A stretch of DNA of 64,000 nucleotides from the NCBI GenBank assembly GCA_012295275.1, contig CM022666.1:6510001-6574000 (forward strand), in the 5' to 3' direction. Positions 10,492-54,300 of the stretch are shown here, in pieces. The translations under genes were made by a program, and so were the position numbers. The DNA is from Chrysomallon squamiferum (Eukaryota; Animalia; Mollusca). The notes under the pieces are model-generated. The model was given only the letters and a program-made list of their open reading frames with translations. It was not told the origin of the DNA and searched no databases. The first letter of the stretch is position 1. Every line of letters begins with the position of its first letter.

Positions 10492-12404
10492 TTACAGCAT
10501 ATACAGACCAAAGTAGGTTGTCTGTGGATCTCTCAAAATTCTGTTCACAACTGATGTTCTCACCACTACAGTGTCGTTGGCTTTCAGGTAGTAAACAGCT
10601 CCAATGTAAGAAGCAACAAAACCTTCCTGGTATCTTCGTACTTTGCATGTTGTTTGAGGATTTCTGTAGAGGACTTCATAATTTGGATATTTTTCAATTG
10701 AGTGACACAGCCTCGCGTATTCTAGCTCTCTGACTTGGTTGGCATGGAATAAAACGTTGCTGTATATGAAGTAGGGAGCAGCTTCTTTGACTTGAATCCC
10801 GTCAGCGACAACAGCAGCAGCTCCTTTCACAAACGATCTTTTACCAGACGACGTCCATTTGATGAGAGGCTTCGGTGTGTCTGAAAAGTTTGTAAGAAGA
10901 AAATATTTTTAAATAATATTTTTATTTTACATTGTCAACAGTTGTAGTTAATATTACTAATATATTTCGCTAACTTCTAGAAAGTCCTATTATTAACTAC
11001 TTTACTACCATCACTGATATTTTTACTACTAACACTGCTAAACTATTGTTATCACAATTTCTACAATTATTTCCTAACTACTACTAATAACTAAGTGATT
11101 ACCACTACTACTATCAACAGACCAACATTTTTCTAGTAACTACTACTATTTCTTCAATTTTACTACTACAACATTTATTACCAAATCACCTCTTTAACTG
11201 AGTACAACTACTCTACTACTACTACTACTACCATTCTACTGCTACTGCTATTACTGCTACTACAACTCTACTACTATTACTCTACTACTACAACTATTAC
11301 TACTACTACTGCTACTATTTGTCTTCTTACTTTTGTCATATATTGCGTTCACTTCCATTTGTAGATGAGCCGACGTCTTCACATTGTTTTTATTATTCAG
11401 ACGATCAGCGACCTCTCTGATCTGCTTAAGTTTCTGTTCTGAAATATATATACATATACACATATATACTGATACATATATAAATACATAGACTCCTATA
11501 CACATTGTTTGATTTTATCTAAATTCAGATGATTTGCGACCTCTCTGATCTACACACACGCGTCCACACACTCATATCACTTATATATGTGTACATACAT
11601 AGACTCGCACATACATACACACATAAATACAAATACATATTTCTAAAAACGTTTGTGGATATTTGAATATGTGTGGCTGAGTGTGTTTGTGTCTGTATCT
11701 TTTTTCGGTGTGTCTAGGTTGATGACTTTTCTTGTGTGTGTCTCTGTGTTTATGCGTCTTTGTGTTTTTAGGTATGTCTGTGTGTGTGTGTATATGTGTC
11801 GGTGTTAACTTACCACTTTTCTCAGCTTTTGTGTGACTTTCACTCAGTTTCTAAAAAGAATGTTAATAACCAATTTAAAACTATTCCATAATAATTTTTT
11901 ATATTTATAAATATATTTTTGCACAATGAATTTCTCCTTTTCATAATTATTAAACATATATGAATTTTTTTTCTTTTTTTAATTTCATTTATAATTAACA
12001 TAACGTTTTAATCTTTCTATGCAGAATTTATCTATTTCTTAATTTCGTACCGACAAAACTTTTATTTTAAATTATTATTATTTCTTTTTATTTTCTAATT
12101 TATGTATGTTTGGAATTTTTTTAGAATTTATAACAGAATTTACCTTTTTCATAATTTCACTGATCACTGTTTCTCCATCTCTGTAACAGCAATACGAGGT
12201 ATTGTTCCTGGTTCTGTTCTTAGATTTGTCATCACAACAGTTTTCTTCTGGTTTGCACGAGATTTTCACACACAGTTCCTTGTCAAACAACAAGTTGGTT
12301 TCTCTGTTCAGAAATTGTTTTAATGTTACTGATACAATGGAACTGATGTGTATCAAGTTTAGTACCATAAGAGAAATGGCAATGACTGGAATAATTGACT
12401 TCAT
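10492..12404 (-). CDS. TNF-superfamily ligand copy B, 264 aa, 4 exons
   Basis: Exons 12404-12144, 11850-11814, 11438-11331, 10880-10492 (261+37+108+389=795 nt), all GT-AG, phases 0/1/1 join in frame. TNF-homology-domain motifs: SAHL, IKW, DGIQV..A.YFIYSNVLF, SYIGAVYYL..NDTVVV, TYFGLYML-stop. Confidence 0.92.
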
Positions 12405-13429
12405 TTTCCTATTTTTCTTTTTGCACTGTATAGTGTATTCTATACTCTTACGTAGAATAGACACTGACTAGCGCATAAAAAATGTTATTGCCTGTGTTTC
12501 TTGTATCAGCCGAGTCGCTTAGCAAAGAGCTGTTTATAAACACTGCTCGGGTAGAATTACTTTTAAAGATAATGAGTGCACTGGTGATTTTTAAAAGTTG
12601 TCCAATGAGCTGCCATTGTTATTGTGAGGTTTTTCCCCGAGCCTAAAGAATTCACCCGTGGACGACCGGGAGACATTTAAACTTAATCATGATATTCGTG
12701 TTTGTGGTTTGCACGAATGTAGGTGTATCTACACATGATTATATTTAACATACTGTCTATAAAGAATACAAATTATGCTTTATAAAATAAACGTTAAAAA
12801 CATGTCACTGAGTGGTGTACAAGTGAAAAATGAGTTGAAAAATGCTCCCATTAATTTTACTTGACATTAAAAAAAACAAAAAAATTAAAAAAACAAAATC
12901 CCCCAAAACACGGAAATACAGAAAAAGATATTTCTACTTCTTTTGAAATCAATGTGCAAGTAATTCTCGAGGAAATAAAAATAATGAAAATACTAATCAG
13001 ATATTGCCAGTGACTGAGTCAGACTGTGGTTTCACAACATTGACTCTCTTGGTATTAATAATATTAACAAAAATAACTTTTGTATCACCTACTGAACTGA
13101 GGTATCGCTGTAGTCTTTATTTAATAACAATGGCAACAGCAAACAGTAATTATTATAATAATGATGATGATAAATTTGATAGTAGCAGTAGTGGTAGTAA
13201 TAATAATACTACTAATAATGATTATATAATAACAGCAGTAGCAGTAGTATTAATGACGATGATGATAGTGATAATAAAATTATTAATAATCAGAATATTT
13301 ATGATTCTGAAATGCATCTGAAAAGAAAACCTATTAAAAACAATGCTTTAAATAGATTGTTCATTATGCATATTTTACATAAAATTTTAATTGTGTTTAT
13401 ATATGTGTGTATATACACATACATACAAA

Positions 13430-13930
13430 CACTGATTTAAGAGTTTAATTCGATCCGTTACCGAGCTCGTAATTCAATTTGCTTGTATATCAAATCAGTT
13501 TTCCGAACTGAAATTAAATTAAAAAAAACATAATCTGTTCCAGCCTCCCAAATAATTTGTAAAGTGTTTTTAAGTTTTGTAAAGTGTATTTTATCTTGGA
13601 GATCAGACAAATTGTTTTAACGTCTTTGGCTGGAGTTACAGCCTTTATCGACTCCTTCAACTTCAGTATGGTACATACCGTAAACGTACTACGCTCGTAC
13701 TGCCTTGCTAAGTCGACTACACACACACACCTCGCTCATGTTTTTATATGAGTTCAAGTTTTAATTTAATGGACATCACCCGCTTCTTGTTCTCAGCACT
13801 GTCCTTTGCATTCACTTTCTTAGGGTCCGTGGTTAGAAAAAAAAATATTTGGCAAAATACTGCACAAAACGCGAGCACAGCACAACAGAGATGCTTCCAC
13901 AGCAAGGTAACCAAGTGAAGTAAACCAAGT
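13430..13930 (-). mobile_element. Tigger/pogo fragment
   Basis: VVDLARQYERSTFTVCTILKLKESIKAVTPAK. Confidence 0.75.
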
Positions 13931-14564: not shown

Positions 14565-14602
<38 letters not shown>

Positions 14603-14611
14603 AATATACAA

Positions 14612-16396: not shown

Positions 16397-16970
16397 TACT
16401 GATTTATGAGTTTAATTCGTTCCGTTACCGAGCTCGTAATTCAGTTTGCTTGTATATTAAATCAATTTTCCCAACTGAAATTAAATTTAAAAAACAGCCC
16501 CCCAAATATCACCCGAATTTTTGTAATGTGTTTTTAAATAAGAAAACAAATATATTTATAAGAGACAGATATTGCATAAAAACTAAATAAAAGAGAATGT
16601 AAAGAAATAAATTGATTTTGTAAAGTGTATTTTATCTTGGAGATCAGACAAATTATTTTAACGTCTTTGGCTGGAGTTACAGCCTTTATCGACTTCTTCA
16701 GCTTCAGTATTGTACATATCGTAGAAGTACTACGCTCGTACTGCCTTGCTAAGTCGACTACACACACACCTCGCTCACGTTTCATATGAATTCAAGCTTC
16801 AGTTTCATGGATATCATCCGCTGCTTCTTCTCAGCACTGTCCTTTGCACTCACTTTCTTAGGATCCATGGTTAGAAAAAAGAAATTTGCCGAACTGCTGC
16901 ACAAAAACACGAGCACAACACAACAGAGATGCTTCCACAACAAGGTAACCACGTGATGTAAATCAAGTGC
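16397..16970 (-). mobile_element. Tigger/pogo fragment
   Basis: Same HTH as 5624-6200 at offset about 10773. Confidence 0.75.
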
Positions 16971-18064
16971 TGTTTTATATTAACAGAGACATCAGATTCT
17001 CTGAAATATTATGTTCGTATGTGTATAGAGATTTGTTTCCATAATCTATAAGATAAGTCAGGAATTTAGCTGTGTCATAACAAAACATCCAACATCAACC
17101 ATCGTCACCAATCAGACTTTCATTGTCAACCTCATAATCCAAAATTTCAATGTCAGCCTCATCGTTCAGAATTTTATTGTTCCTACAAATACTATTAATA
17201 TTAGTGCTGTTGCTACTATTATTAACTTTATCATCTTGATCTTCCATCATTATTATAATTATTACTGTTTGCTGTTGTCATTATTGTTAAATAAAACTGC
17301 AGTGATACCTCTGGTCACTAGTTCATTATTTTTCTTACTTGGATATTTACTTTAATGTGTAATTTTGCATTTGATATATTTGTTTTTTTAAATATCAAGT
17401 CAGATTAACGAGAGCATGTTTCAGCTCACTTTTCACTTGTACACCAGTCAGTAACATGATTTTAATTTTTATAAAGCAAAATTTGTATATTTTATAGACA
17501 GTATGTTAAATACTGCTGTTATATAGGTACACATACGTACGTGCACAGTCACACACACACATCACAATTAAGTTTGAACGATCATCCACTAGTCTCTCAC
17601 GTTTGATTTGCCGTCTTAATACCCCCCGCCTCCCATCCCCCCAAAAAACCATACAAAAAAACCAAACAACAATAACAATGGTAGGTCGGTGGACAAATTT
17701 TAAAAATCACCAGTCCATTCATTATCTTTACGCCTACCCGAGCAGTGTTCATAAATAGCTGTGACTCAGTCTGAGTGACTGTGAAATGTACACCTAGTGT
17801 GGTATCTTATTTCGCTACCTGATTCTGTCACTGTTACCTCTTGTCCACACGAACACCCTGAAAAACTGATACGCTTTTAAAAATCAATAAATAAAAATAA
17901 ATAGTTTTTATCTGTCAGGGAATAATCCTAAATTTGAAATTAGATAATGTAGAGGTTCTGGATTAAATATTTGATAAAATTATTTCGGATTACACTACTG
18001 AAGAGTGATTGAATAAAAACTAATAAAATACCTGGATAATTGTCAGTTGTTACGTTTATTTCTT

Positions 18065-18264
18065 NNNNNNNNNNNNNNNNNNNNNNNNNNNNNNNNNNNN
18101 NNNNNNNNNNNNNNNNNNNNNNNNNNNNNNNNNNNNNNNNNNNNNNNNNNNNNNNNNNNNNNNNNNNNNNNNNNNNNNNNNNNNNNNNNNNNNNNNNNNN
18201 NNNNNNNNNNNNNNNNNNNNNNNNNNNNNNNNNNNNNNNNNNNNNNNNNNNNNNNNNNNNNNNN
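18065..18264. other. Assembly gap (200 N)
   Basis: Run of exactly 200 N; the true size is unknown. Confidence 0.99.
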
Positions 18265-26390: not shown

Positions 26391-26460
<70 letters not shown>

Positions 26461-29375: not shown

Positions 29376-29407
<32 letters not shown>

Positions 29408-33804: not shown

Positions 33805-33900
33805 TTACAGCATATACAGGCCAAAGTAGGTGGTTTGAGGATCTCTCAAAATTCTGTTCACAACTGATGTTCTCACCACTACAGTGTCATTGGCTTTCAC
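33805..33900 (-). pseudogene. Truncated TNF exon-4 3' fragment
   Basis: Translates VKANDTVVVRTSVVNRILRDPQTTYFGLYML-stop, followed by the usual 3' flank; upstream it breaks into A/AAT-rich sequence. Confidence 0.85.
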
Positions 33901-35117: not shown

Positions 35118-36969
35118 TTACAGCATATACAGACCAAAGTAGGTTGTCTCAGGATCTCTCAAAATTCTGTTCACAACTGATGTTCTCACCACTACAGTGT
35201 CATTGGCTTTCAGGTAGTAAACAGCTCCAATGTAGGAAGCAGCAAAACGTTCCTTGGAACCTCGTACTTTGCATGTTGTTTGAGGATTTCTGTAGAGGAC
35301 TTCGTAATTTGGATATTTTTCAATTGAGTGACACAGCCTCGCGTATTCTAGCTCTCTGACTTGGTTGGCATGGAATAAAACGTTGCTGTATATGAAGTAG
35401 GGAGCAGTTTCTTTGACTTGAATCCCGTCAGCGACAACAGCCACAGCTCCTTTCACAAACGATCTTTTACCAGACGACGTCCATTTGATCAAAGGCTTTG
35501 GGTTGTCTAAAAGTTTGTAAGAATAATTTATTTTTAAATAATATTTTATTTTATATTGTCAACAGTTGTAGTTAGTATTAGTAATCTATTTCTATTACTA
35601 CTACATGATCCTTATATTAACTACTACCATCACTGGTGTTTTAACTCCTAACAGTTTCTGTCACAATTTCTACAATTATTTCCTAACTACTACTATTATC
35701 TAAGTTATTACTACTACTACTATCAACAGACCAACATTTTTTAGTAACTACTACTATTACTTCAATTTTACTACTACTACATTTAACTGAGTACAACTAC
35801 TCTACTACTACTACTACGAGTACTACTACCATTCTACTGCTACTACTACTACTACAACTCTACTACTATTACTCTACCACTACTACTACTCTACTACTAC
35901 TATTACTAGTTCTCTACTACTACTACTTCTACTACTACTATTTGTTTTCTTACTTTTGTCATATGTTGCATTCACTTCCATTTGTAGATGAGCCGATGTC
36001 TTCATATTGTTTTTATTATTCAGACGAGCAGCAATCTCTCTGATCTTCTGAAGTTCTTGTTCTGAACATATACAAATACACACTCTTATACACATTGTTT
36101 TTATTATCTAAATTCAGATAATTGCGACCTCTCTGATCTACACACACGCGGTCCACACACATACACACTCACATCACTTATATATGTGTACATACATAGA
36201 CTCGCACATACATACACACATAAATACAAATACATATTTATAAAAACGTTTGTGGGTATTCGAGTATGTGTGGCTGAGTCAGTTTGTGTCTGTATCTTTT
36301 TTCGGTGTGTGTCTCTGTGTTTCTGCTACTTTGTATTTTTACGTATGTCTGAGTGTGTATGTGTCTGTGTTAACTTACCACTTTTCTCAGCTTTTGTGTG
36401 ACTTTCACTCAGTTTCTAAAAAGAATGTTAATAACCAATTTAAAACTCTTCCATAATAATTTTTTATATTTATAAATATATTTTTGCGCAATGAATTTCT
36501 CCTTTTCATAATTATTAAACATATGTGAATCTTTTTTCTTTTTTTAATTTCATTTATAATTAACATAACTTTTTAATCTTTCTATGCAGAATTTATCTAT
36601 TTCTTAATTTCGTACCGACAAAACTTTTATTTTAAATTATTATTATTTCTTTTTATTTTCTAATTTATTTATTTATGGAATTTTTTTAGAATTTATAACA
36701 GAATTTACCTTTTTCATAATTTCACTGATCACTTTTTCTCCATCTCTGTAACAGCAATACGTGGTATTGTTCCTGGTTCTGTTCATAGATTTGTCATCAC
36801 AACAGTTTTCTCCTGGTTTGCACGAGATTTTCACACAGAGTTCCTTCTCAAACAACACTTTGGTTTCTCTATTCAGAAATTCTTTTAATGTTACAGATAC
36901 AATGACACTGATGAGAATGAAGTTTAGCACCATAAGAGAAATGGCAATGACTGGAAGAACTGACTTCAT
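35118..36969 (-). CDS. TNF-superfamily ligand copy C, 264 aa, 4 exons
   Basis: Exons 36969-36709, 36415-36379, 36061-35954, 35506-35118; GT-AG, open frame, same exon lengths and THD motifs as copy B. Confidence 0.92.
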
Positions 36970-37078
36970 TTTCCTTCTTTTCTTTGTGCTATTCCACTGT
37001 ATTGCGTATAGTGTCTTTTATACTCTTACGTTGAATCGTCACTGACATGCGCACATGTTATCAAAATTCAGATTGGTT

Positions 37079-37329
37079 TGGCCTTCCTCCAAAATACAAT
37101 AGCTATCTGGCTCTTCTTCAAAATACAATAGCTATCTGGCTCTTCTTCAAAACACAATAGCTGTCTGGCTCTTCTCCAAAACACAATAGGTGTTTGGCTC
37201 TTCTCCAAAACACAATAGGTATTTGGCTCTTCTCCAAAACATAATAACTGTCTGGCTCTTCTCCAAAACACAATAGGTGTTTGGCTTTTCTCCAAAACAT
37301 AATAGCTGTCTGGCTTTACCTCTTCAAAA
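37079..37329. repeat. 29-bp minisatellite, 8 full units plus a partial, about 110 bp upstream of the copy C ATG
   Basis: Unit tggctcttctccaaaacacaatag(ctgtc|gtgtt); starts at 37079, 37108, 37137 and so on. Confidence 0.95.
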
Positions 37330-38453
37330 TCATTTTACACACACTATTACGTAAATTTAGTTAATCTTAACAGTTAATTGTTGCATGAACCAAATGGAAA
37401 TAAAACAACAAAATATAAATAAACTAACAAGCAAAACAATGGAAATAAGTCACATACTATTAGCGCACACACACACACACAAACACACATGCACGAAGAA
37501 ACAACATATATACATTTATACATGTGTTGATACACAGACTGGTACACACGTAACAACTGATTAGGTATTTTATTTTATTTTTTATTCAATCACTCTTCAA
37601 TAAATAAATGATCGAATATTTAATCCAGAACATCTACATTATCTAATTTCAAATGTCCTAATACACTCCAGCTATGCACTACAGTATATATCTACACAAG
37701 CTCCAAGGACGCGCACTGTCATAAAAATTGGATTATTCCCTGACAGAGAAAAACTACTTATTTTTATTTATTTGTTTATATTTAAAATCGTGTCAGTTGT
37801 TCAGGGTGCTCATGTGGACTAGAGATAACAGTGACAGAAGCAGGATGTGAAATAAGATATCGGGGAAACCACGTTACGTACACATTTCAGTCATTGTAGT
37901 TCGAGACTCAGAGTGAATACGTGGGCCGAGTATTTTGTATCAGCTGCATGGCTTAGATAAACAGCTATTTATAAACACTGCCCGGGTAGAAACTACTTTT
38001 AAAGATAACGAGTGCACTGGGGATTTTTGTAAGTTGTTCAGTGAGCTACCGTTGTTACTATCTGTTGTTTGTTTGTTGTTGTTGTTTTTTGTTTGTTTTG
38101 CAGATAGTAAACCAAACCGTCATGGACGTCTGGATGACCATTAAAACGTAATCATGATATAAGTGTGTGTGGTTGTGCAGGAATGTAGGTGTATCTGTTG
38201 TATAAGTATGTCATATATACATGGTTATATAACAGCAATATTTAATTTTTCCTAACCACTACTAATAAATAAGTGATTATCATTCCTTCTACTACTATCA
38301 ACAGACCAAGCTTGTAAGTAAGCACTACTATTACTTCAATTTTACTACTATCAAATCACCTCTTTAACTGAGTACAACTAGTCTACTACTACTATAACTC
38401 TGCTACTATTACTAGAAATCTACTACTACTACTACTACTATTTGTTTTCTCAC

Positions 38454-39465
38454 TTGTCAAATGTTGCATTCATTTCCATTTGTAGATGAGCCGATGTCTT
38501 CACTTTGTTTTTATTATTCAGATTATAAGCGACCTCTCTGAAGTTTAAGTTTCTGTTCTGAAATATACACACATACATACATACAGAGAGATAGATTGAC
38601 ACATGTATAAATACACTGACTCGTATACACATTGTTTTTGTTATCTAAATTCAGAAAATCAGCGACACCTCTGATCTTCATACACATAAGCACACACACA
38701 CACATACACACACATATATATATACATGTACATATACAGACTCGCACATACATACACATAAATACAAATACATAGTGAATATGTGCGACTTGTTGTTTCT
38801 GTTTGTATCTGTGTATTTTTTCTGTGTGTGTATGTTTATGACTTTTCTTGAATGTGTCTGTGTTAACTTATCACTTCTCTCTGCTTTTGTATGACTTTCA
38901 TTCAGTTTCTAAAAACGATGTTAATAATCACTTTGAAACTCGTCCATAATAATCAATTTTAAATTTATAAATATATTTCAGCACTATTAATTTCTCCTTT
39001 TCATAATTCTAATATTATTAAACCTATATGAATCTTTATTCTTTTTTCAATTTCATTTATAATTAACTTAACTTTTTTATCGATTTATACAGAATTTACC
39101 GATTTCTTAATTTCGTACCTATACAAATTTTATTTTATTTTATTTCATTTTTATTTTTATTTTTTTGTATTTAATGTATTTATGGACATTTTTTAGAATT
39201 TACTTTTTTCATAATTTCACTGATCATTTTTTTCTCCATCACTGTAACAGCAATACGTGGTATGGTTAATGGTTCTCTTCGTAGATTTGTGATCACAACA
39301 GTTTTCTCCTGGTTTTGCACGAGATTTTCACACACAGTTCACTGTCAAACAACAAGTTGATTTGTCTGTTTAGATATTCGTTTAATGTTACAGATACAAT
39401 GAAACTGATGAGTACAAGTTTAGTACCATAAGAGAAATGGCAATGACTGGAAGAACTGACTTCAT
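38454..39465 (-). pseudogene. TNF ligand pseudogene D (exons 1-3, no exon 4)
   Basis: ATG at 39465 gives MKSVLPVIAISLMVLN, then a 1-nt deletion and early TAA; exon-2 donor mutated GT>AT near 38871; exon 3 frameshifted; intron 3 runs into the upstream module of copy C with no THD exon. Confidence 0.85.
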
Positions 39466-40988
39466 TTTCCTACGTTTTATTTTCTGTGTGGTATTGCATT
39501 GTATAGTGTCTTTATATTGTTACATACAATAGACACTGACAAGCGCATAAAAATAGTTATTCAAGTCATGCGTAAATGTTTTTAAAAGTTCGACCCTCCT
39601 CCAAAACATTGGAAAGCTCTCTAGGCCCCTCTCTCCAAACTCATTTTATACATACCTACATACTATTACGTAAATTTAATTGATCTTAACAGTTAATTGT
39701 TGCATGAACCAAATGGAAATAAAAAACACAATACAAAACAAACAAACAAAACATACTATTAGTGCACACTCACACACACCTACACACACCCACCCACACA
39801 CACACAAACACACACACACATGGATTAGAGATAACAGTAATTGAAGCAGGTAGTTACATACACATTTCACAGCAAACGACGTCATTGCATCTATAGCTTA
39901 CAACTCAGCAGTTTATAAACAATGCTCGACTAGAATTACGTTTGAAGATAAAGAAATGCACTGGTGATCTTTTAAATTGTCCAATGAGCTACTATTGTTA
40001 CTATCTGGGTTTTTTTGGAGGGAGGGTTGGACGACCGGATGACCAATAAAACTGAATCATGATATACGTGTGGGTGGTCGTGCACGAATGTAGGTGTATC
40101 TACACATGATTATATTTAACATACTGTCTATAAAGAATACAAATTATGCTTTATAAAATAAAAATTAAAATCATGTCAATGACTTCTATACAAGCGAAAA
40201 ATGACTTGATCAATGCTCCAATTAATATTACTTGACATTAACAAACAAAAAAAAAACAAAAAAAAAACAGACAAATACAGAACTTTGTATTTCTTTTAAA
40301 GTCAATGTCCAAGTAATTCTCGAGGAAATAAAAATAATGAAAATACTAATCAGATTTGCCAGTGTCTGAGTCAGACTGTGGTTTCACGACATTGACTCTC
40401 TTGGTATTAATAATATTAACAAAAATAACTTGTGTATCACCTACTGAACTGAGGTATCGCTGTAGTCTTTATTTAATAACAATGGCAACAGCAAAGAGTA
40501 ATAATTATAATCATGATGATGATAAATTTAATAGTAGCAGTAGTAGTAGTAGCAGTAGTAGTAGTAGCAGCAGCAGCACTAATATAAATAGTAGTAGAAG
40601 TAATAATACTACTAATAATGATTATATAATAATAGTAGTAGCAGTAATATTAATGACGATGATGACAGTGATAATAAAATTATTAATAATCATAATATTT
40701 ATGATTCTGAAATGCTTCTGAAAAGAAAACCTATTAAAAAAAAAATGCTTTAAATAGATTGTTCATTATGCAAATTTTACATAAAATTTTAATTGTGTGT
40801 ATATATGTGTGTGTGTTTTCTTATTTTAATTATTATTTTATTTTTGTTTTTGAAACAATGTTATTCACCTGCGAATATCTGTATTTTGTGTGTGTCTATC
40901 TTGGTATTATTTATTACTAATAACATTTTTCTTCTTTAGGTCTTGTTTTAAAGACCACTTCTAAAGGAATTAAAAGTTGTTACAGAAA

Positions 40989-41860
40989 ACGGTACCAATT
41001 CGTCCAGTCATTGCCAATTTCTCTTATGGTACTAAATATCGTGGAAACCAGGAGAAAACTGTTGTCATGACAAATCTACGAACAGAACCAGGAACAATGC
41101 CACGTATTGCAGTTACAGAGATGGAGAAAAAGTGATCAGTGAAATTATGAAAAAGGTATGTTTGTTTTTCTTCATTTTTTTAAAGACACACGAAATTATG
41201 AATTTGGAAAAGTTTAAATATATAATTGAATGAAATTATGTTTATTTGTTGTTGTTATGCTTTTTTTTTTTTTTCGAATTTGATGCAGTTATGGGTTTAT
41301 TTTTGTAGTGTGTGTATATATGACAAAATAGTCTCTTTTTATTGTATCAGCGAACTTCAAAATGCCTGATCTAAAGGGACGTAAAGCAGAAATTACTCTT
41401 AAATGAGTATAATAGCTGGAATTGTTGTCTGAGCTGTTCAGAGCAAACTCAGGCTAAATTATGTGAAATTATGATTTATTATTCTTTTAACTTTTTAAAT
41501 GTTTATTTTATATTAAAAAATGTATTTTTTTTTCTTGATTTTATTTTTTTTTTATTTTTTTTTATTTTTGTTTTGGTTTATAGTTACACATGAAATTATA
41601 AAATAGAAACATTCAGTGTGCCCAAAACATATATTTATTAATTTAAAAATGCTTATTTTAGACATGTCTCATTATGGTTTTTAATATTCATTTTAGAAGC
41701 TGAATGAAAATTATGCAAGATAGAAAAAGTGGTAAGCTAACACAAACTGTAACCTGTGTGTGTGTGTGTGTGTGTGTTTGTGTGTGTGTATATACATATA
41801 TTTCAGAACAAAAACTTCACAGATCGCAGAGAACTGATTTTAGTTAATAAAAATTCCGTT
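40989..41860 (+). pseudogene. Inverted (plus-strand) TNF pseudogene: internally deleted exon 1 plus exon-2 and exon-3 relics, tail-to-tail with copy E
   Basis: 40989-41155 matches exon 1 (ccagtcattgcc..ctcttatggtactaaa...aaaccaggagaaaactgttgt...gaaattatgaaaaag|gtatg); 41697-41731 is ttttag|aagctgaatgaaaa...aaaagtg|gtaag (exon 2); from 41807 atttcag|aacaaaaacttca (exon 3 start). Confidence 0.8.
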
Positions 41861-42000: not shown

Positions 42001-43736
42001 TTACAGCATATACAGGCCAAAGTAGGTTGTCTCAGGATCTCTCAAAATTCTGTTCACAACTGATGTTCTCACCACTACAGTCTCATTGGCTTTCATGTAG
42101 AAAACAGCTCCAATGTAGGAGGGAACAAAACCTTCCTGGTATCTTCGTACTTTGCATGTTGTTTGAGGATTTCTGTAGAGGACTTCATAATTTGGATATT
42201 TTTCAATTGAGTGACACAGCCTAGCGTATTCTAGCGCTCTCATTTGGTTGGCATGGAATAAAATGTTGCTGTATATGAAGTAGGGAGCAGTTTCTTTGAC
42301 TTGAATCCCATCAGCGACAACAGTCACACCTCCTTTCACAAACGATATTTTACCAGACGACGTCCATTTGATGAGAGGCTTCGGTATGTCTGAAAAGTTT
42401 GTAACAATAAATGACTTTTAAATATTATTTTAATTTTAAATTGTCAACAGTTGTAGTTAGTATTAGTAATCTATTTCTATTACTACTACATGATCCTTAT
42501 ATTAACTACTACTATCACTGGTATTTTTACCCCTAACAGTTTCTATCACAATTTCTACAATTATTTCCTAACTACTACTAATAACTAAGTCATTACTACT
42601 ACTACTATCAACATACCAACATTTTTTTAGTAACTACTGCTATTACTTCAATTTTACTACATTTAACTGAGTACTACTACTCTACTACTGCTATTACTAG
42701 TTCTCTACTACTACTATTTGTTTTCTTACTTTTGTCATATGTTGCATTCACTTCCATTTGTAGATGAGCCGATGTCTTCACATTGTTTTTATTATTCAGA
42801 CGAGCAGCAATCTCTCTGATCTTCTGAAGTTCTTGTTCTGAACATATACAAATACACACTCTTATACACATTGTTTTTATTATCTAAATTCAGATAATTG
42901 CGACCTCTCTGATCTACACACACGCGGTCCACACACATACACACTCACATCACTTATATATGTGTACATACATAGACTCGCACATACATACACACATAAA
43001 TACAAATACATATTTATAAAAACGTTTGTGGGTATTCGAGTATGTGTGGCTGAGTCAGTTTGTGTCTGTATCTTTTTTCGGTGTGTGTCTCTGTGTTTCT
43101 GCTACTTTGTATTTTTACGTATGTCTGAGTGTGTATGTGTCTGTGTTAACTTACCACTTTTCTCAGCTTTTGTGTGACTTTCACTCAGTTTCTAAAAAGA
43201 ATGTTAATAACCAATTTAAAACTCTTCCATAATAATTTTTTATATTTATAAATATATTTTTGCGCAATGAATTTCTCCTTTTCATAATTATTAAACATAT
43301 GTGAATCTTTTTTCTTTTTTTAATTTCATTTATAATTAACATAACTTTTTAATCTTTCTATGCAGAATTCTTAATTTCGTACCGACAAAACTTTTATTTT
43401 AAATTATTATTATTTCTTTTTATTTTCTAATTTATTTATTTATGGAATTTTTTTAGAATTTATAACAGAATTTACCTTTTTCATAATTTCACTGATCACT
43501 TTTTCTCCATCTCTGTAACAGCAATACGTGGTATTGTTCCTGGTTCTGTTCATAGATTTGTCATCACAACAGTTTTCTCCTGGTTTGCACGAGATTTTCA
43601 CACACAGTTCCTTCTCAAACAACAAGTTGGTTTCTCTGTTCAGAAATTGTTTTAATGTTACAGATACAATGACACTGATGAGAATGAAGTTTAGCACCAT
43701 AAGAGAAATGGCAATGACTGGAAGAACTGACTTCAT
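42001..43736 (-). CDS. TNF-superfamily ligand copy E, 264 aa, 4 exons
   Basis: Exons 43736-43476, 43191-43155, 42837-42730, 42389-42001; GT-AG, open frame, THD motifs intact. Confidence 0.92.
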
Positions 43737-43845
43737 TTTCCTTCTTTTCTTTGTGCTATTCCACTGTATTGCGTATAGTGTCTTTTATACTCTTACGTTG
43801 AATCGTCACTGACATGCGCACATGTTATCAAAATTCAGATTGGTT

Positions 43846-44212: not shown

Positions 44213-45336
44213 TCATTTTACACACACTATTACGTAAATTTAGTTAATCTTAACAGTTAATTGTTGCATGAACCAAATGGAAATAAAACAACAAAATATA
44301 AATAAACTAACAAGCAAAACAATGGAAATAAGTCACATACTATTAGCGCACACACACACACACAAACACACATGCACGAAGAAACAACATATATACATTT
44401 GTACATGTGTTGATACACAGACTGGTACACACGTAACAACTGATTAGGTATTTTATTTTATTTTTTATTCAATCACTCTTCAATAAATAAATGATCGAAT
44501 ATTTAATCCAGAACATCTACATTATCTAATTTCAAATGTCCTAATACACTCCAGCTATGCACTACAGTATATATCTACACAAGCTCCAAGGACGCGCACT
44601 GTCATAAAAATTGGATTATTCCCTGACAGAGAAAAACTACTTATTTTTATTTATTTGTTTATATTTAAAATCGTGTCAGTTGTTCAGGGTGCTCATGTGG
44701 ACTAGAGATAACAGTGACAGAAGCAGGATGTGAAATAAGATATCGGGGAAACCACGTTACGTACACATTTCAGTCATTGTAGTTCGAGACTCAGAGTGAA
44801 TACGTGGGCCGAGTATTTTGTATCAGCTGCATGGCTTAGATAAACAGCTATTTATAAACACTGCCCGGGTAGAAACTACTTTTAAAGATAACGAGTGCAC
44901 TGGGGATTTTTGTAAGTTGTTCAGTGAGCTACCGTTGTTACTATCTGTTGTTTGTTTGTTGTTGTTGTTTTTTGTTTGTTTTGCAGATAGTAAACCAAAC
45001 CGTCATGGACGTCTGGATGACCATTAAAACGTAATCATGATATAAGTGTGTGTGGTTGTGCAGGAATGTAGGTGTATCTGTTGTATAAGTATGTCATATA
45101 TACATGGTTATATAACAGCAATATTTAATTTTTCCTAACCACTACTAATAAATAAGTGATTATCATTCCTTCTACTACTATCAACAGACCAAGCTTGTAA
45201 GTAAGCACTACTATTACTTCAATTTTACTACTATCAAATCACCTCTTTAACTGAGTACAACTAGTCTACTACTACTATAACTCTGCTACTATTACTAGAA
45301 ATCTACTACTACTACTACTACTATTTGTTTTCTCAC

Positions 45337-46349
45337 TTGTCAAATGTTGCATTCATTTCCATTTGTAGATGAGCCGATGTCTTCACTTTGTTTTTATTAT
45401 TCAGATTATAAGCGACCTCTCTGAAGTTTAAGTTTCTGTTCTGAAATATACACACATACATACATACAGAGAGATAGATTGACACATGTATAAATACACT
45501 GACTCGTATACACATTGTTTTTGTTATCTAAATTCAGAAAATCAGCGACACCTCTGATCTTCATACACATAAGCACACACACACACATACACACACATAT
45601 ATATATACACATGTACATATACAGACTCGCACATACATACACATAAATACAAATACATAGTGAATATGTGCGACTTGTTGTTTCTGTTTGTATCTGTGTA
45701 TTTTTTCTGTGTGTGTATGTTTATGACTTTTCTTGAATGTGTCTGTGTTAACTTATCACTTCTCTCTGCTTTTGTATGACTTTCATTCAGTTTCTAAAAA
45801 CGATGTTAATAATCACTTTGAAACTCGTCCATAATAATCAATTTTAAATTTATAAATATATTTCAGCACTATTAATTTCTCCTTTTCATAATTCTAATAT
45901 TATTAAACCTATATGAATCTTTATTCTTTTTTCAATTTCATTTATAATTAACTTAACTTTTTTATCGATTTATACAGAATTTACCGATTTCTTAATTTCG
46001 TACCTATACAAATTTTATTTTATTTTATTTCATTTTTATTTTTATTTTTTTGTATTTAATGTATTTATGGACATTTTTTAGAATTTACTTTTTTCATAAT
46101 TTCACTGATCACTTTTTCTCCATCTGTGTAACAGCAATACGTGGTACTGTTCCTGGTTCTGTTCGTAGATTTGTCATCACAACAGTTTTCTCCTGGTTTT
46201 GCACGAGATTTTCACACACAGTTCACTGTCAAACAACAAGTTGATTTGTCTGTTTAGATATTCGTTTAATGTTACAGATACAATGAAACTGATGAGTACA
46301 AGTTTAGTACCATAAGAGAAATGGCAATGACTGGAAGAACTGACTTCAT
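45337..46349 (-). pseudogene. TNF ligand pseudogene F (duplicate of D)
   Basis: Same main lesions as D at an offset of about 6884 bp; ATG at 46349. Confidence 0.85.
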
Positions 46350-46675
46350 TTTCCTACGTTTTATTTTCTGTGTGGTATTGCATTGTATAGTGTCTTTATA
46401 TTGTTACATACAATAGACACTGACAAGCGCATAAAAATAGTTATTCAAGTCATGCGTAAATGTTTTTAAAAGTTCGACCCTCCTCCAAAACACTGGAAAG
46501 CTCTCTAGGCCCCTCTCTCCAAACTCATTTTATACATACCTACATACTATTACGTAAATTTAATTGATCTTAACAGTTAATTGTTGCATGAACCAAATGG
46601 AAATAAAAAAACACAATACAAAACAAATAAACAAAACATACTATTAGTGCACACTCACACACACCTACACACACC

Positions 46676-46707
<32 letters not shown>

Positions 46708-47254
46708 CACATGGATTAGAGATAACAGTAATTGAAGCAGGTAGTTACATACACATTTCACAGCAAACGACGTCATTGCATGTATAGCTTACAACTCAGC
46801 AGTTTATAAACAATGCTCGACTAGAATTACGTTTGAAGATAAAGAAATGCACTGGTGATTTTTAAATTGTCCAATGAGCTACTATTGTTACTATCTGGGT
46901 TTTTTGGGGGTAGGGTTGGACGACCGGATGACCAATAAAACTGAATCATGATATACGTGTGGGTGGTCGTGCACGAATGTAGGTGTATCTACACATGATT
47001 ATATTTAACATACTGTCTATAAAGAATACAAATTATGCTTTATAAAATAAAAATTAAAATCATGTCACTGACTTCTATACAAGAGAAAAATCACTTGAAA
47101 AATGCTCTCATTAATTTTACTCGATATTAACAACAAAAAACAACAACAATAAACCCCCTAAAAAACCCTAAAGAATCCAGACAAATACAGAACAAGACAT
47201 TTGTACTTCTTTTGAAGTCAATGTGTAAGTAATTCTCGAGGAAATATATATATA

Positions 47255-47830
47255 TACTGATTTATGAATTTAATTCGTTCCGTTACCGAGCTCATAATTC
47301 AGTTTGCTTGTATATTAAATCAATTTTCCCAACTGAAATTAAATTAAAAAAACAGCCCCCCAAATATCACCCGAATTTTTGTAATGTGTTTTTAAATAAG
47401 AAAACAAATATATTTATAAAAGACAGATATTGCATAAAAACTAAATAAAAGAGAATGTAAAGAAATAAATTGGTTTTGTAAAGTGTATTTATCTTGGAGA
47501 TCAGACAAATTATTTTAACGTCTTTGGCTGGAGTTATAGCCTTTATCGACTCCTTCTGCTTCAATATAGTACATATCATAAAAGTACTAAGCTTGTATTA
47601 CCTAGCTAAGTCGACTACACGCACACTTCGCACTATTTTCTATAATTTCATGCTTTAATTCAATGGACATCACCCGCTTCTTGTTCTCAGCACTGTCCTT
47701 TGCACTCACTTTCTTAGGATCCATGGTTAGAAAAAAGAAATTTGCCGAACTGCTGCACAAAAACACGAGCACAACACAACAGAGATGCTTCCACAACAAG
47801 GTAACCACGTGATGTAAATCAAGTGCTGTT
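47255..47830 (-). mobile_element. Tigger/pogo fragment
   Basis: MDPKKVSAKDSAENKKRVMSIELKHEIIE...ICTILKQKESIKAITPAK. Confidence 0.75.
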
Positions 47831-50589
47831 TTATATTAACAGAGACATCAGATTCTCTGAAATATTATGTTCGTATGTGTACAGAGATTTGTTTCCATAA
47901 TCTATAAGATACATCAGGAATTTAGCTGTGTCATAACAAAACATCCAACATCAACCATCGTCACCAATCAGACTTTCATTGTCAACCTCATAATCCAAAA
48001 TTTCAATGTCAGCCTCATCGTTCAGAATTTTATTGTTCCTACAAATACTATTAATATTAGTGCTGCTGCTACTATTATTAACTTTATCATCTTGATCTTC
48101 ATCATTATTATAATTATTACTGTTTCCTGTTGTCATTGTTGTTAAATAAAGACTACAGTGATACCTCTGGTCACTAGTTCATTATTTTTATTACTTGGAT
48201 ATTTACTTTAATGTGTAATTTTGCATTTGACATATTTTTTTTGTTTTTTAAATATCAAGTCAAATTAACGAGAGCATGTTTCAGCTCACTTTTCACTTGT
48301 ACACCAGTCAGTGACATGATTTTAATTTTTATAAAGCAAAATTTGTATATTTTATAGACAGTATGTTAAATACTGCTGTTATATAGATACACATACGTAC
48401 GTGCACAGTCACACACACACATCACAATTAAGTTTGAACGATCATCCACTAGTCTCTCACGTTTGATTTGCCGTCTTAATACCCCCGCCTCCCATCCTCC
48501 CAAAAACATACAAAAAACCAAACAACAATAACAATGGTAGGTCGGTGGACAAATTTTAAAAATCACCAGTCCATTCATTATCTTTACGCCTACCCGAGCA
48601 GTGTTCATAAATAGCTGTGACTCAGTCTGAGTGACTGTGAAATGTACACCAAGTGTGGTATCTTATTTCGCTACCTGATTCTGTCACTGTTACCTCTTGT
48701 CCACACGAACACCCTGAAAAACTGATACGCTTTTAAAAATCAATAAATAAAAATAAATAGTTTTTATCTGTCAGGGAATAATCCTAAATTTGAAATTAGA
48801 TAATGTAGAGGTTCTGGATTAAATGTTTGATAATTTATTTCGGATTACACTACTGAAGAGTGATTGAATAAGAAGTAATAAAATACCTGGATAATTGTCA
48901 GTTGTTACGTTTATCTTTCTTTGTATCTTTCATGCATGTACATCACGTGTACTTGGCGTGATCAGGGCAAACCGAACAAAGCCAAAACTTTACATGATCA
49001 CGGTGCACGCTCTCGCCTTTGCGTGTGTGTGTGTGTGTGTGCGTGTGTATGAGTTACTGAACATCGACAACGGCAATCGTAATATTAATAAGAACTACGA
49101 CTGCAACAATACAACAGCAGTAATGAGTGTATGTAGTTTATTTGAGAACATTATGTATAAAGTACACATGTAACATTTAAATATTTTCTTTCTATTATAT
49201 TCTAGGTGGTTATCTTCTTTCCTAACAGTAAGGTTATATTACATTTTCTCATAGCTTTTCAAAAAGGTGATTTATAGGATTCGAATAAAAACCACCTGAT
49301 TCGCGAAAATTCTAGTTTCTGTTTGTTTTTAATACTTTATTATTATCATCTAAAGGGCAGCAGACTCTAAGCAAATTAAAAAATTATTTAGATAACGAAA
49401 ATTAAGTAAGAAGGCAATTTATACAGGGTAGTCCAAAAGCAGGTGGACAGTAAATGATAATATTTATTTTGAGATTACATATACAGTTATATTTACTCAA
49501 AAAGTAGGTGGACGTTTAAATAATTTAAATAATTGTAGTTATAAAATTTTAAATAACATAGCACTAACACCATAGTTATAATGAACATCATTGTAATAAT
49601 ACAACCCTTATTTTAATTTTTTTGAAAGAATATTCTATTGTTTGTGTAGAATCTCTGTGCACGCATTATTTTTATGTGCGTGCGTGTGTGTGTGTGTGTG
49701 TTCTTGTTTTATTTATTATTTTATTTTTTGAAAGAATGTTATTCACGTGCGAATATCTGCATTTTCTACGTGTCTTTATCTTGGTATTATTTATTACTAA
49801 TAACATTTTTCTTCTTTTGGTCATTGTGTTACAGACTACGTCAAAAGGAATTAAAAGTTGTTACACGAAATGGTACCAATTCGTCCAGTCATTGCCATTT
49901 CTCTTATGAAGCATTTCTCAATCATAAATCTATCTTTTGATAATTAATAATTTTATTATCACTATCATCATCATCATGGTCATTATTACTACTGCTACTA
50001 GTATTATTATATAATCATCATTATTAGTATTATCCTTATTACTAATACTATTTATATTGGTGCTGCTATTACGTCATTATCATAATTATTACTGTTTGCT
50101 GTTGTCATTGTTGCTAAATAAAGACTACAGTGATACCTCTGGTCACTAGTTCACTAATTTTATCTCTTGGATATTTACTTTAATGTGTTGTTCTGAATAT
50201 GTCGGTTTTTTTTTTTTTTTTTGTCCGTTTTTTTAAATATGAAGTCAAATTATTGAGAGCATGTTTCAACTCACTTTTCACTTGTACAGAAGTCAGTGAC
50301 ATGATTTTAGTTTTTATTTTACAAATCATAATTTTTATACATTATAGACAATGTGTTAAATATTTCTGTTATATTACCACGTACATATCACATACTTATA
50401 CTGACAAGGCTGGTGCAACCATATAGGCAAACCAGGCAGCCAACTAAGGCGCTGATTTCAGGGAGATCATTTTATAATATTGCAGGGGGCAGTTCTGCTG
50501 TGAATGAATATTTTATCGAATGATAAGATTTTAAACGTAAACGTGTCATTTCTACCGAAATCACATTTTGGGTGGAGTGAGACCAGAGA

Positions 50590-51100
50590 GCCCAACCAAT
50601 AACTTTGGCTGCCGTATCTGCCTTTAAAGGACCAACAGAAAATTAGGCAAAAGAAACATTACTGACATCAAATTTTGTAACGATTAGTTTCTTTGGTACG
50701 AGTTCTTGGCATTCCGTGGTAGAAATGAAAAGTTGTATTGCCCTGGTAACGGAAATCTTTTGAAGATTATAGAATACAAAGCCCTTTTTGAAATCTTTTG
50801 AAGATTATAGAGTATCTAGCCCATTTTGATCCTATCATGAATGCTCGTTTGCGTAGAGTTAAGAATTACGAATCCCTAGTTCACTATCTTGGAAAAGGTA
50901 TCCAAACTGACCTTTTACAGCTTGTAGCCAGTGCTATACAAAAAAAAAAAAAAATTTTAATTTGTGTAAACTCTACTAAATAGTTTATTCCATAATTCTG
51001 GATTGATGTAAGTGCTACTGAAAAAATTACAATGACTGTTCATTTTGTTGACGTAATCAGAACATGAGACAATGGGATAACTGAGCATGAAGTCATCACT
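50590..51100 (+). mobile_element. hAT fragment, duplicate of 8700-9200 (shorter pieces at 4960-5111, 15735-15886, 58005-58104)
   Basis: KIIEYLAHFDPIMNARLRRVKNYESLVHYLGKGIQTDLLQLV. Confidence 0.7.
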
Positions 51101-52117
51101 AATGTCTATCTTTATGTTTATTTATTCTTGTCTTAATTTTGCAAATAAAATAGTATCAAATAGTGTATTTTGGGGGGGTGTCCGGACATTTGAGCAGAGA
51201 GGGGTAATATATTTTTTTATGTCTGGTCTGTGATGAAATTTTGAAATCTTTAATTTTTTTATTTATTGTTTCTATATTTTGAAACTGATATATTTGGATA
51301 CCCACACCCACGCATATATCACGTCTCAGTTTAAATTACTGTGCAGTCGTCACGAAGCGTGTCCAGAAAAAGAACCGACAGTAACAATGGTATCTCATTG
51401 ACAACTTTTAACAATCCCCAGTGCATTCGTTATCTTAAAAAGGTCTACCCAAGCAGTGTTTGTGAACAGTTGTTTGCTAAGCGACTCGGCTGATACAAAA
51501 TATTCTCAACATAAACTGATGTCAGGCTGGGACGTATGATTGCCCCGACATCTTATTTCACAGCCTGCTTGAATGATGCGACTGCTATTGTATCGAGTCC
51601 ACATAAACAACTGACACAGATTTGAAAATAAATGAATAAAAATAAAAAGTTTTTCTATCAGAGAATAACCCAATTTTCATGACCAAGCGCTTCCGTGTTG
51701 CTTGTGTAGATATACTACAGTGTATAGCTGGAGTGTATTAGGACATCTGAAATTAGATAATGTAGAGGCTCTGGATACAGATTTTGATAATTTATTTAGG
51801 GTTAGACCATTGAAAAGTGATTGAACAAAAAATAATAAATCTCGCAGAAACCCAGCGATATCCATTAAAGTGTAGTCTGAGCTGTTGTCCACCAGAGAAG
51901 ACTCAGGCTAAATTATATGAAATTATGATTTATTTTTCTTTTAAATTTTTAAATGTTTATTTTAAATTAAAAAAAAACAGAAAAAAACGAAATATTTTTT
52001 TATAGATGCACATGAAATTATAAAAAAGAGAAATTCAGTGTGCTCAAAACATATTTATTAATTTAAAACGTCTTATTTTAGACATGTCTCATTATGGTTT
52101 TTAATATTCTTTTTTAG

Positions 52118-52245
52118 AAGCTGAATGAAAATTATGCAAGATAAGCAAAAGTGGTAAGCTGACACAAACACACGCATATACATATATTTCAGAACAAAAA
52201 CTTCAGCAGATCGCAGAGAACTGATTTTAGATAATAAAAATTCCG
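52118..52245 (+). pseudogene. Inverted TNF exon-2/exon-3 relics downstream of copy G
   Basis: Same relics as 10221-10350; exon-2-like segment 52118-52153 ends aaaagtg|gtaag. Confidence 0.7.
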
Positions 52246-52387
52246 TTTGGGTGTGTAGCTATATATTTAAACAGTATCAAGTCATAAACAGTTAGTTTGA
52301 TATATACACGTCCATGAGTACTCTCTTTCTGTCAGAGTACAAAAAATTATATATTAACAGTTATAATTCAGGCCTCTCGAAACAATT

Positions 52388-54300
52388 TTACAACATATAC
52401 AGACCAAAGTAGGTTGTCTCAGGATCTCTCAAAATTCTGTTCACAACTGATGTTCTCACCACTACAGTGTCATTGGCATACAGGTAGTAAACAGCTCCAA
52501 TGTAGGAAGCAGCAAAACCTTCCTGGTATCTTCGTACTTTGCATGTTGTTTGAGGATTTCTGTAGAGGACTTCATGATTTGGATATATTTCAATTGAGTG
52601 ACACAGCCTAGCGTATTCTAGTTCTGTCACTTGGTTGGCATGGAATAAAACGTTGCTGTATATGAAGTAGGCAGCAGTTTTTTTGACTTGAATCCCGTCA
52701 GCGACAACAGCTGCAGCTCCTTTCACAAACGATCTTTTACCAGACGACGTCCATTTGATGAGAGGCTTCGGTGTGTCTGAAAAGTTTGTAAGAAGAAAAT
52801 ATTTTTAAGTAATATTTTTATTTTACATTGTCAACAGTTGTAGTTAATATTACTAATATATTTCGCTAACTTCTAGAAAGTCCTATTATTAACTACTTTA
52901 CTACCATCACTGATATTTTTACTACTAACACTGCTAAACTATTGTTATCACAATTTCTACAATTATTTCCTAACTACTACTAATAACTAAGTGATTACCA
53001 CTACTACTATCAACAGACCAAATTTTTTTTAGTAACTACTACTATTTCTTCAATTTTACTACTACAACATTTATTACCAAATCACCTCTTTAACTGAGTA
53101 CAACTACTCTACTACTACTACTACTACCATTCTACTGCTACTGCTATTACTGCTACTACAACTCTACTACTATTACTCTACTACTACAACTATTACTACT
53201 ACTACTGCTACTATTTGTCTTCTTACTTTTGTCATATATTGCGTTCACTTCCATTTGTAGATGAGCCGACGTCTTCACATTGTTTTTATTATTCAGACGA
53301 TCAGCGACCTCTCTGATCTGCTTAAGTTTCTGTTCTGAAATATATATACATATACACATATATACTGATACATATATAAATACATAGACTCCTATACACA
53401 TTGTTTGATTTTATCTAAATTCAGATGATTTGCGACCTCTCTGATCTACACACACGCGTCCACACACATACACACTCACATCACTTATATATGTGTACAT
53501 ACATAGACTCGCACATACATACATATTTATAAATACATATTTATAAAAACGTTTGTGGATATTTGAATATGTGTGGCTGAGTGTTTGTGTCTGTATCTTT
53601 TTTCGGTGTGTGTAGGTTGATGACTTTTCTCCTGTGTGTCTCTGTGTTTATGCGACTTTGTGTTTCTAGGTATGTCTGTGTGTGTGTATATGTGTCGGTG
53701 TTAACTTACCACTTTTCTCAGCTTTTGTGTGACTTTCACTCAGTTTCTAAAAAGAATGTTAATAACCAATTTAAAACTATTCCATAATAATTTTTTATAT
53801 TTATAAATATATTTTTGCACAATGAATTTCTCCTTTTCATAATTATTAAACATATATGATTTTTTTTTCTTTTTTTAATTTCATTTATAATTAACATAAC
53901 TTTTTAATCTTTCTATGCAGAATTTATCTATTTCTTAATTTCGTACCGACAAAACTTTTATTTTAAATTATTATTATTTCTTTTTATTTTCTAATTTATG
54001 TATTTTTGGAATTTATTTAGAATTTATAACAGAATTTACCTTTTTCATAATTTCACTGATCACTGTTTCTCCATCGTTGTAACAACAATACATGGTATTG
54101 TTCCTGGTTCTCTTCGTAGATTTGTCATCACAACAGTTTTCTCCTGGTTTGCACGAGATTTTCACACACAGTTCCTTGTCAAACAACAAGTTTGTTTCTC
54201 TGTTCAGATATTCGTTTAATGTTACAGATGCAATGAAACTGATGAGAATGAAGTTTAGTACCATAAGAGAAATGGCAATGACTGGAAGAATTGACTTCAT
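52388..54300 (-). CDS. TNF-superfamily ligand copy G, 264 aa, 4 exons
   Basis: Exons 54300-54040, 53746-53710, 53334-53227, 52776-52388; GT-AG, open frame, THD motifs intact; same 1913-bp span as copy B. Confidence 0.92.

What the first reader, a model, noticed from the sequence alone, without database searches (positions are those of the whole stretch)
10492..54300. Exons 1 and 4 diverge much more than adjacent introns between copies B and G
Seen by eye: B and G differ at 13 of 87 residues in exon 1 and 9 residues in exon 4 (plus roughly 8 silent changes). Exons 2 and 3 look identical, the 450-bp intron 3 has only about 3 differences and intron 1 only a handful. This inverts the normal pattern. 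Because silent sites also differ, exon-limited gene conversion from other paralogs or relics, or intron homogenisation, fits better than positive selection alone (inference). It could be a templated diversification system for a cytokine.
Basis: partly seen in the sequence, partly recalled or inferred. Interest (0 to 1): 0.8.

Follow-up and report, generated by a model that had tools for sequence, protein, structure and literature searches.

The report
Patchwork snail TNF gene array
Two copies of a TNF-type signalling gene, in a tandem array of a probable deep-sea snail, differ more in their two long exons than in their introns, most likely because ordinary DNA copying between the many gene copies evened out the middle of the gene and swapped short patches into exon 1, not because of a dedicated diversifying system.

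Summary
The counts hold. B and G are four-exon TNF-family genes that differ at 13 of 87 residues in exon 1 and 9 in exon 4 (12 silent changes in all), against 1.7% in introns. But exons 1 and 4 (5.7%) match 5.8 kb of flanking DNA (4.7%, p=0.29). The outlier is a near-identical central block (432 identical columns, p=0.0002). In the recent C-D/E-F duplicate, 14 of 24 mismatches lie in two 45-64 bp patches inside exon 1, one in a frameshifted relic pair, with 0 in 1,420 intron columns. Best reading (0.65): recent tandem duplication plus germline interlocus gene conversion in a family of likely tens of copies. Overall dN/dS is 0.56, no donor was found for the two patches, and nothing indicates a somatic or programmed system. 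B and G may be alleles across a scaffold gap (0.17). The pattern is known from opsins, and this scan noted it before on other DNA (IZUMO1, TMEM150C, G6PC arrays).

The parts
12144..12404 (-). Copy B exon 1 (87 codons: hydrophobic N-terminal anchor, Cys-rich stalk)
   Evidence: RNA joint 11850/12144 in run X8
11851..12143 (-). B intron 1 (GT..AG, 293 bp; 4 mismatches to G)
11814..11850 (-). B exon 2 (37 bp, identical in B, G, C, E)
11439..11813 (-). B intron 2 (5' part 4.8% divergent from G, 3' part identical)
11331..11438 (-). B exon 3 (108 bp, identical in G)
   Evidence: RNA contig ends at 11438
10881..11330 (-). B intron 3 (450 bp; 4 mismatches to G)
   Evidence: RNA joint 10880/11331
10492..10880 (-). 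B exon 4, TNF homology domain
   Evidence: Pfam PF00229 E 1.5e-15; fold match to TRAIL and lymphotoxin
11134..11564 (.). Longest B/G identical run (432 columns: intron 3, exon 3, intron 2)
   Evidence: permutation p=0.0002
9169..9494 (.). Second B/G identical run (326 bp), intergenic
52388..54300 (-). Copy G, intact (e1 54040-54300, e2 53710-53746, e3 53227-53334, e4 52388-52776)
   Evidence: Pfam TNF E 7.2e-15
50..310 (-). Copy A exon 1 (rest lies outside the window); B-like middle, G-like 3' end
35118..36969 (-). Copy C, intact
36838..36882 (-). 45-bp patch in C exon 1 holding all 5 C/E exon-1 differences
38244..39466 (-). Relic D (frameshifts, ends in intron 3, no exon 4)
39228..39291 (-). 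64-bp patch in D exon 1 holding all 9 D/F exon-1 differences
42001..43736 (-). Copy E, intact
45127..46350 (-). Relic F (shares D's frameshifts, no exon 4)
35930..40150 (.). First unit of the recent C-D / E-F tandem duplicate (partner about 42705-47040); 10 mismatches in 3,699 bp outside exon 1
33805..33899 (-). Fragment: 3' end of exon 4
40996..41155 (+). Inverted fragment of exon 1
18065..18264 (.). 200-N scaffold gap separating A and B from C-G

Best explanation
B and G are TNF-family genes in a tandem array, and their exon-over-intron divergence most likely comes from ordinary germline gene conversion acting on duplicated copies. Shown: the B and G units are about 5% apart in flanks and in exons 1 and 4, but nearly identical in a central block; recent sister copies differ almost only in short patches inside exon 1; exon 1 of A, B and G is a mosaic. 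Inferred step 1: unequal crossing-over made the sister units. Inferred step 2: a later conversion between B- and G-type copies reset the central block and one intergenic patch. Inferred step 3: exon 1 takes up short tracts from other paralogues, likely because long exons are the only parts that stay about 90% alike across many copies, while introns have few suitable donors. Selection is not needed to explain the pattern, though it may keep stalk variants.
For: Exons 1+4 5.7% vs flanks 4.7% (p=0.29); introns 1.7% vs flanks (p=8e-7). Identical runs of 432 and 326 columns against a 99th percentile of 211. C-D/E-F duplicate: 14 of 24 mismatches in two exon-1 patches, 0 in 1,420 intron columns. The chance that both patches fall inside an exon 1 is about 0.01. 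D and F share frameshifts and lack exon 4, so they were likely dead before the patch arose. For 13 of 19 B/G exon-1 differences both letters occur in other window copies. Four-gamete conflicts: exon 1 24 of 136 site pairs, introns 10 of 4,950. A equals B over 19 variable sites (p=0.002, one of 21 pairs); PHI-like p=0.014. A groups with G at 91% support in the 3' third of exon 1. At 88% likeness, summed contig depth over exons 1 and 4 is 83-169 times that of B/G-type intron 2, and over introns 1 and 3 only 6-19 times; this is a hint of many donors, not a copy number. At 12 of the 18 exon sites checked, the letter that other runs show instead of B's is G's letter.
Against: No donor was found for the C and D patches, so their templated origin is inferred; clustered mutation is not excluded. 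There are only two patch events, and p rises to 0.07 if overlap with any exon counts. The exon-1 alignment does not reject the intron tree (AU p=0.32). The G=A run alone is not significant (p=0.11). Exon 4 shows no exon-limited signal in C/E, and 9 of 18 B/G exon-4 differences are private to G within the window. No genome is held, so copies outside the window could not be read.
Confidence: 0.65

Rival explanations
1. B and G are alleles or alternative haplotypes of one array position, kept side by side across the scaffold gap. The introns would show allelic divergence, while exons and flanks would be raised by ectopic conversion or old polymorphism. This still needs conversion, but changes what is being compared.
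For: 5362-13195 is collinear with 47000-55086, and a 200-N gap lies between them. Run X3 has contigs identical to G's flanks (51928-52090, 52311-52390, 54459-54644), yet its one contig over the three intron-3 diagnostic sites carries B's letters; X4 carries a mixed type there. X1 has a contig identical to B's 3' flank over 215 bases.
Against: Beyond the collinear part the two sides are arranged differently: A neighbours B, while relic F neighbours G. Flanks that are unique to B and G within the window still differ by 3-8%. Mixed intron types also fit ongoing conversion between paralogues. It does not explain C/E and D/F, which lie in one gap-free stretch.
Confidence: 0.17
2. Opsin-type case: conversion homogenises B and G throughout, and selection keeps exons 1 and 4 different because the two proteins have distinct functions.
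For: Silent exon divergence (8.5%) exceeds intron divergence (1.7%), as in L/M opsins (PMC3213168 abstract, PMC3924837 passages). Silent sites are slightly above flanks (p=0.047). Codons 53-80 of exon 1 hold 17 extra amino-acid states against 1 synonymous among 7 copies (window chosen after the fact, relics included). Two G changes flank the Tyr-Pro that aligns with the FasL 'SKYP' stretch; its role in receptor binding is recalled.
Against: The exons are no peak above the non-coding flanks. dN/dS does not exceed 1 for B/G. The relic pair shows the pattern without a protein. Variable residues in the TNF domain are not enriched in loops: 15 of 25 lie outside strands, p=0.51.
Confidence: 0.08
3. 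Assembly artefact: collapsed or polished repeats made the introns identical, or mis-mapped reads from paralogues wrote short patches into the exons.
For: The exons attract sequence from very many paralogues at 88% likeness. The patches are shorter than a short read. The assembly method is unknown and the source reads were not at hand (best run holds 0.56 of the words).
Against: B and G introns carry their own letters. B's three intron-3 letters occur in X1, X2 and X3, and two of G's three in X4. Contigs identical to B's and G's own flanks occur in other runs. G's letter at 52478 is covered without a difference in X3. The C and D patch letters themselves were not checked in reads.
Confidence: 0.06
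4. A dedicated templated diversification system (somatic, or RNA/cDNA-guided) rewrites cytokine exons from relic copies.
For: Both patches lie wholly inside exon 1, and nearby introns are untouched. Of the D/F patch differences 8.5 of 9 are amino-acid-changing in the old frame. Somatic recombination has been proposed for mussel myticin-C (PMC3164099, passages).
Against: Window relics do not hold the patch letters, and a relic pair is itself patched. All four intact copies keep all three introns. The patches are in the 5' exon, whereas reverse-transcript templates would favour the 3' end (recalled). Similar patchiness occurs in intergenic DNA.
Confidence: 0.04

Closest known systems
TNF superfamily ligands; nearest Gigantopelta aegis lymphotoxin-alpha-like XP_041372759.1
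   Same: Pfam TNF domain and TNF fold; 52% identity over exon 4; same N-terminal hydrophobic stretch and Cys-rich stalk; also multi-copy, 6 clusters at 75-100% to the query.
   Different: Window copies form their own clade (100% support) and are about 86-92% identical to each other (20-37 differences in 264 residues), so their expansion or homogenisation is more recent.
Catarrhine L/M opsin genes (PMC3213168, abstract; PMC3924837, passages)
   Same: Introns of tandem paralogues are more alike than exon synonymous sites because of gene conversion.
   Different: There the exon peaks are ascribed to selection on spectral sites. Here the exons equal the flanks, a relic pair shows the pattern too, and the family is likely far larger.
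MHC and other multigene families with short-motif conversion (PMC12674619, passages; PMC3924837, passages)
   Same: Exon-by-exon tree differences, motifs shared between copies, pseudogenes within the cluster.
   Different: A signalling ligand rather than a recognition receptor; no evidence of balancing selection was obtained.
Tandem TNF expansion in the clam Mercenaria mercenaria (PMC8905726, passages)
   Same: Large, recent, tandem expansion of molluscan TNF genes (76 genes).
   Different: The passages seen do not address gene conversion or intron versus exon divergence.
Sea urchin Sp185/333 family (PMC5103432, passages)
   Same: Clustered, microsatellite-rich immune genes with segmental duplications and proposed conversion.
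   Different: That family almost lacks pseudogenes, which led to a proposal of regulation; this array has two relics and several fragments in 64 kb.

Membership tests
TNF superfamily ligand | C-terminal TNF homology domain | tested here: met
   PF00229 at 55-60 bits vs cut-off 23 for B, G, C, E
TNF superfamily ligand | TNF beta-sandwich fold | tested here: met
   Model pLDDT 81.7; best Foldseek hit mouse TRAIL, E 7e-9, TM 0.80
TNF superfamily ligand | N-terminal membrane anchor (type II) | tested here: inconclusive
   19-residue hydropathy peak 2.1-2.7 starting at residue 5-8; anchor not told apart from a signal peptide
TNF superfamily ligand | Homotrimer that binds a TNF receptor | not tested
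   No complex predicted; no receptor in the window
TNF superfamily ligand | Expressed and spliced | tested here: inconclusive
   RNA run X8 shows joints for introns 1 and 3, but its contigs carry non-B letters at 12340, 12349 and 12392, so family expression only
Interlocus gene conversion | Identical tracts longer than chance between paralogues | tested here: met
   432-column run, p=0.0002; A=B run, p=0.002 before correction for 21 pairs
Interlocus gene conversion | Conflicting phylogenetic signal along the gene | tested here: inconclusive
   PHI-like p=0.014 and 24 of 136 conflicts, but AU p=0.32
Interlocus gene conversion | Donor sequence identified | tested here: inconclusive
Interlocus gene conversion | Partners are paralogues, not alleles | tested here: inconclusive
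   C/E and D/F lie in one gap-free stretch; B/G lie across a gap
Opsin-type selected peak of divergence | Introns less divergent than exon synonymous sites | tested here: met
   19/1110 vs 12/142, p=6e-5
Opsin-type selected peak of divergence | Divergence peak confined to selected exons | tested here: not met
   Flanks equally divergent, p=0.29
Programmed or somatic templated diversification | Sequence variation between cells or tissues of one animal | not testable with these tools
   Only contigs, no matched germline and soma
Programmed or somatic templated diversification | Adjacent pseudogene library acting as donor | tested here: not met
   Window relics lack the patch letters and a relic pair is itself patched

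The most novel reading that the evidence does not exclude
Exon 1 is a targeted conversion hot spot that keeps reshuffling the Cys-rich stalk among tens of snail TNF paralogues, with selection favouring new stalk variants: an MHC-like haplotype generator working on a cytokine, possibly also in somatic cells.
Probability: 0.08. Interest if true: 0.7.

Novelty: new member of a known kind. Interest (0 to 1): 0.3.

Why it matters
As it stands this is a clean example of a known process. It is also a caution: exons that look fast-evolving against their introns can simply sit beside a homogenised block. The useful extra is the relic pair, which shows exon-1 patches without a protein to select on. Searches for TNF with gene conversion in molluscs or invertebrates and for TNF in vent snails listed no paper whose title or abstract opening describes conversion in an invertebrate TNF array; most subscription journals are not in the library. 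If the stalk were shown to be shuffled under selection, it would extend MHC-like diversification to a cytokine.

Tried and rejected
No genome is held. Word-index protein searches with exon 4 found nothing at either length range. Metagenome scans found no related locus. So no donor outside the window could be read. One search used boundaries 1-8 bases off; supersede it. Positive selection on exon 4 rejected (dN/dS 0.36); loop enrichment not found. The AU test on exon 1 was not significant. X1 has almost no cover over G's 3' flank at 97% likeness (52102-52303, depth 0-0.7); a hole in contigs proves nothing, so it is not counted as evidence. Contig depths were too uneven to tell one B/G-type locus from two. 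Of 11 runs listed, 5 were laid (X1-X4, X8); X5-X7 and X9-X11 were not. Rows left out of the C-D/E-F count: C/E exon 4 and intron 3 and everything beyond 40150, because they lie outside the near-identical block; the interval was chosen after seeing the profile. Indels are not in the 0-of-1,420 count: a 9-bp one in C/E intron 1 and a 2-bp one in D/F intron 2. Paper searches returned nothing. No complex was predicted. No supplements were read.
Full report
What is there. The window holds a minus-strand tandem array of a four-exon gene: intact copies B, C, E and G, exon 1 of A at the window edge, frameshifted relics D and F, and fragments. Canonical GT..AG boundaries give 264-residue proteins. An RNA run joins across introns 1 and 3 exactly, which shows the structure for the family, not for B itself. 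Exon 4 encodes a TNF domain (Pfam E 1.5e-15; nearest solved sequences FasL and TRAIL; fold match TM 0.80). The nearest protein is a Gigantopelta aegis lymphotoxin-alpha-like protein at 52%, so the animal is likely a related gastropod. That species also has several copies, which branch apart from the window's. A 200-N gap separates A and B from C-G.

Observation. Exons 1+4 differ from introns at p=8e-6, and silent sites alone at p=6e-5.

Which side is the outlier. B and G sit in units that align over about 8 kb. The non-coding flanks differ at 272 of 5,771 sites (4.7%), exons 1+4 at 37 of 650 (5.7%, p=0.29) and introns at 19 of 1,110 (1.7%, p=8e-7 against flanks). The longest identical run is 432 columns across intron 3, exon 3 and intron 2 (p=0.0002), and a second one of 326 is intergenic. 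For B/G, therefore, the centre is unusually alike; the exons are not unusually different. dN/dS is 0.94, 0.36 and 0.56 for exon 1, exon 4 and the whole gene.

The other pairs. C-D and E-F form a recent tandem duplicate. In 35930-40150 there are 24 mismatches, 14 of them in two patches of 45 and 64 bp inside the exon 1 of C/E and of D/F; 1,420 intron columns have none, indels aside. The interval was chosen after seeing the profile, and C/E intron 3 and exon 4, outside it, diverge alike at about 7%. Counted as two events, the chance of both lying inside an exon 1 is 0.01, or 0.07 for overlap with any exon. D and F share frameshifts and lack exon 4, so selection on their protein is unlikely to explain their patch. 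Most patch letters occur in no other window copy, so the donors, if any, lie elsewhere.

Mosaic exon 1. For 13 of 19 B/G differences both letters recur in other copies. Site conflicts number 24 of 136 pairs in exon 1 against 10 of 4,950 in introns; the intron figure is low partly because the six copies fall into three near-identical pairs. A matches B over 19 variable sites (p=0.002 uncorrected) and groups with G in the 3' third (91%); a PHI-like test gives p=0.014. Against this, the exon-1 data do not reject the intron tree (AU p=0.32), and the G=A run alone has p=0.11.

Other animals. Five of 11 listed runs were laid, all as contigs. At 88% likeness, exons 1 and 4 gather 83-169 times the summed depth of B/G-type intron 2, and introns 1 and 3 only 6-19 times. 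The tool warns that this is no copy number; I read it as a hint of many paralogues that share exons but not introns. Contigs identical to B's own flank (X1) and G's own flanks (X3) exist. B's intron-3 letters occur in X1, X2 and X3, and two of G's three in X4. This speaks against simple collapse. X3 pairs G flanks with B intron letters, which fits either ongoing conversion or B and G being alleles.

Mechanism. Most likely (0.65): unequal crossing-over produced sister units, conversion between B- and G-type copies reset the centre, and exon 1 receives short tracts from the wider family because long exons offer the only good homology to many donors. The divergence profile is shown; these three steps are inferred. 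A promoter-side recombination hot spot could add to the exon-1 bias (PMC11703093, search listing only; untested). Rivals: alleles across the gap (0.17), selection-kept exon differences (0.08), assembly artefact (0.06), programmed or RNA-templated system (0.04). The first rival overlaps with the best reading in needing conversion.

Comparison with what is known. Introns more alike than exons between tandem paralogues through conversion is described for L/M opsins (PMC3213168, abstract; PMC3924837, passages). Motif shuffling is described for MHC (PMC12674619, passages), mosaic concerted evolution for mammalian gene pairs (PMC2720389, passages), and tandem TNF expansion for a clam (PMC8905726, passages). 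Proposed somatic or regulated variants exist for myticin-C (PMC3164099, passages) and Sp185/333 (PMC5103432, passages); nothing here tests as one. Searches listed no report of conversion in an invertebrate TNF array, judged from titles and abstract openings in an open-licence library. Earlier unreviewed notes of this scan describe the same pattern in other genomes; none matched this sequence or place.

Verdict. It is a new member of a known kind. Interest 0.3.

Noticed in passing
window 11509-11551 (also 53405-53447, 36091-36139, 42867-42915): Intron 2 holds a diverged duplicate of part of exon 3, preceded by AG and followed by GT; a possible pseudo-exon. C and E have 1-bp deletions in it.
   Followed up: partly
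window 10117-10320 (also 51953-52212, 41594-41817, 33623-33679): Downstream of B, G and E lies an inverted, roughly 70% identical relic of the intron 1 to exon 3 region, pointing to an older inverted duplication.
   Followed up: no
window 47256-50068, 55089-57904, 5624-8123, 16398-18064: A 2.8-kb spacer module repeats between copies with the same patchwork: 47856-50055 vs its partner has 6 mismatches, the first 600 bp have 37. It carries a 32-bp inverted piece of exon 1.
   Followed up: partly
window 29009-29377 (+) and 1372-1719 (-): Frames resembling the N-terminus of a pogo/Tigger-type transposase (resemblance recalled); no Pfam hit.
   Followed up: partly
window about 23000-28500 (+): An unrelated, likely multi-exon gene between the two TNF clusters, with a 309-aa frame of roughly 10-residue repeats at 27573-28502; only sub-threshold Pfam hits.
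   Followed up: partly
window 10775-10776: In all four runs laid, every contig counted at these two sites carries letters found in none of B, G, C and E, so the window's copies look like a minority subtype of the family.
   Followed up: partly
window 35121-35504 (copy C, domain residues 82-86): C has four clustered amino-acid changes in a loop of the TNF domain where B, G and E agree; another candidate short tract.
   Followed up: no
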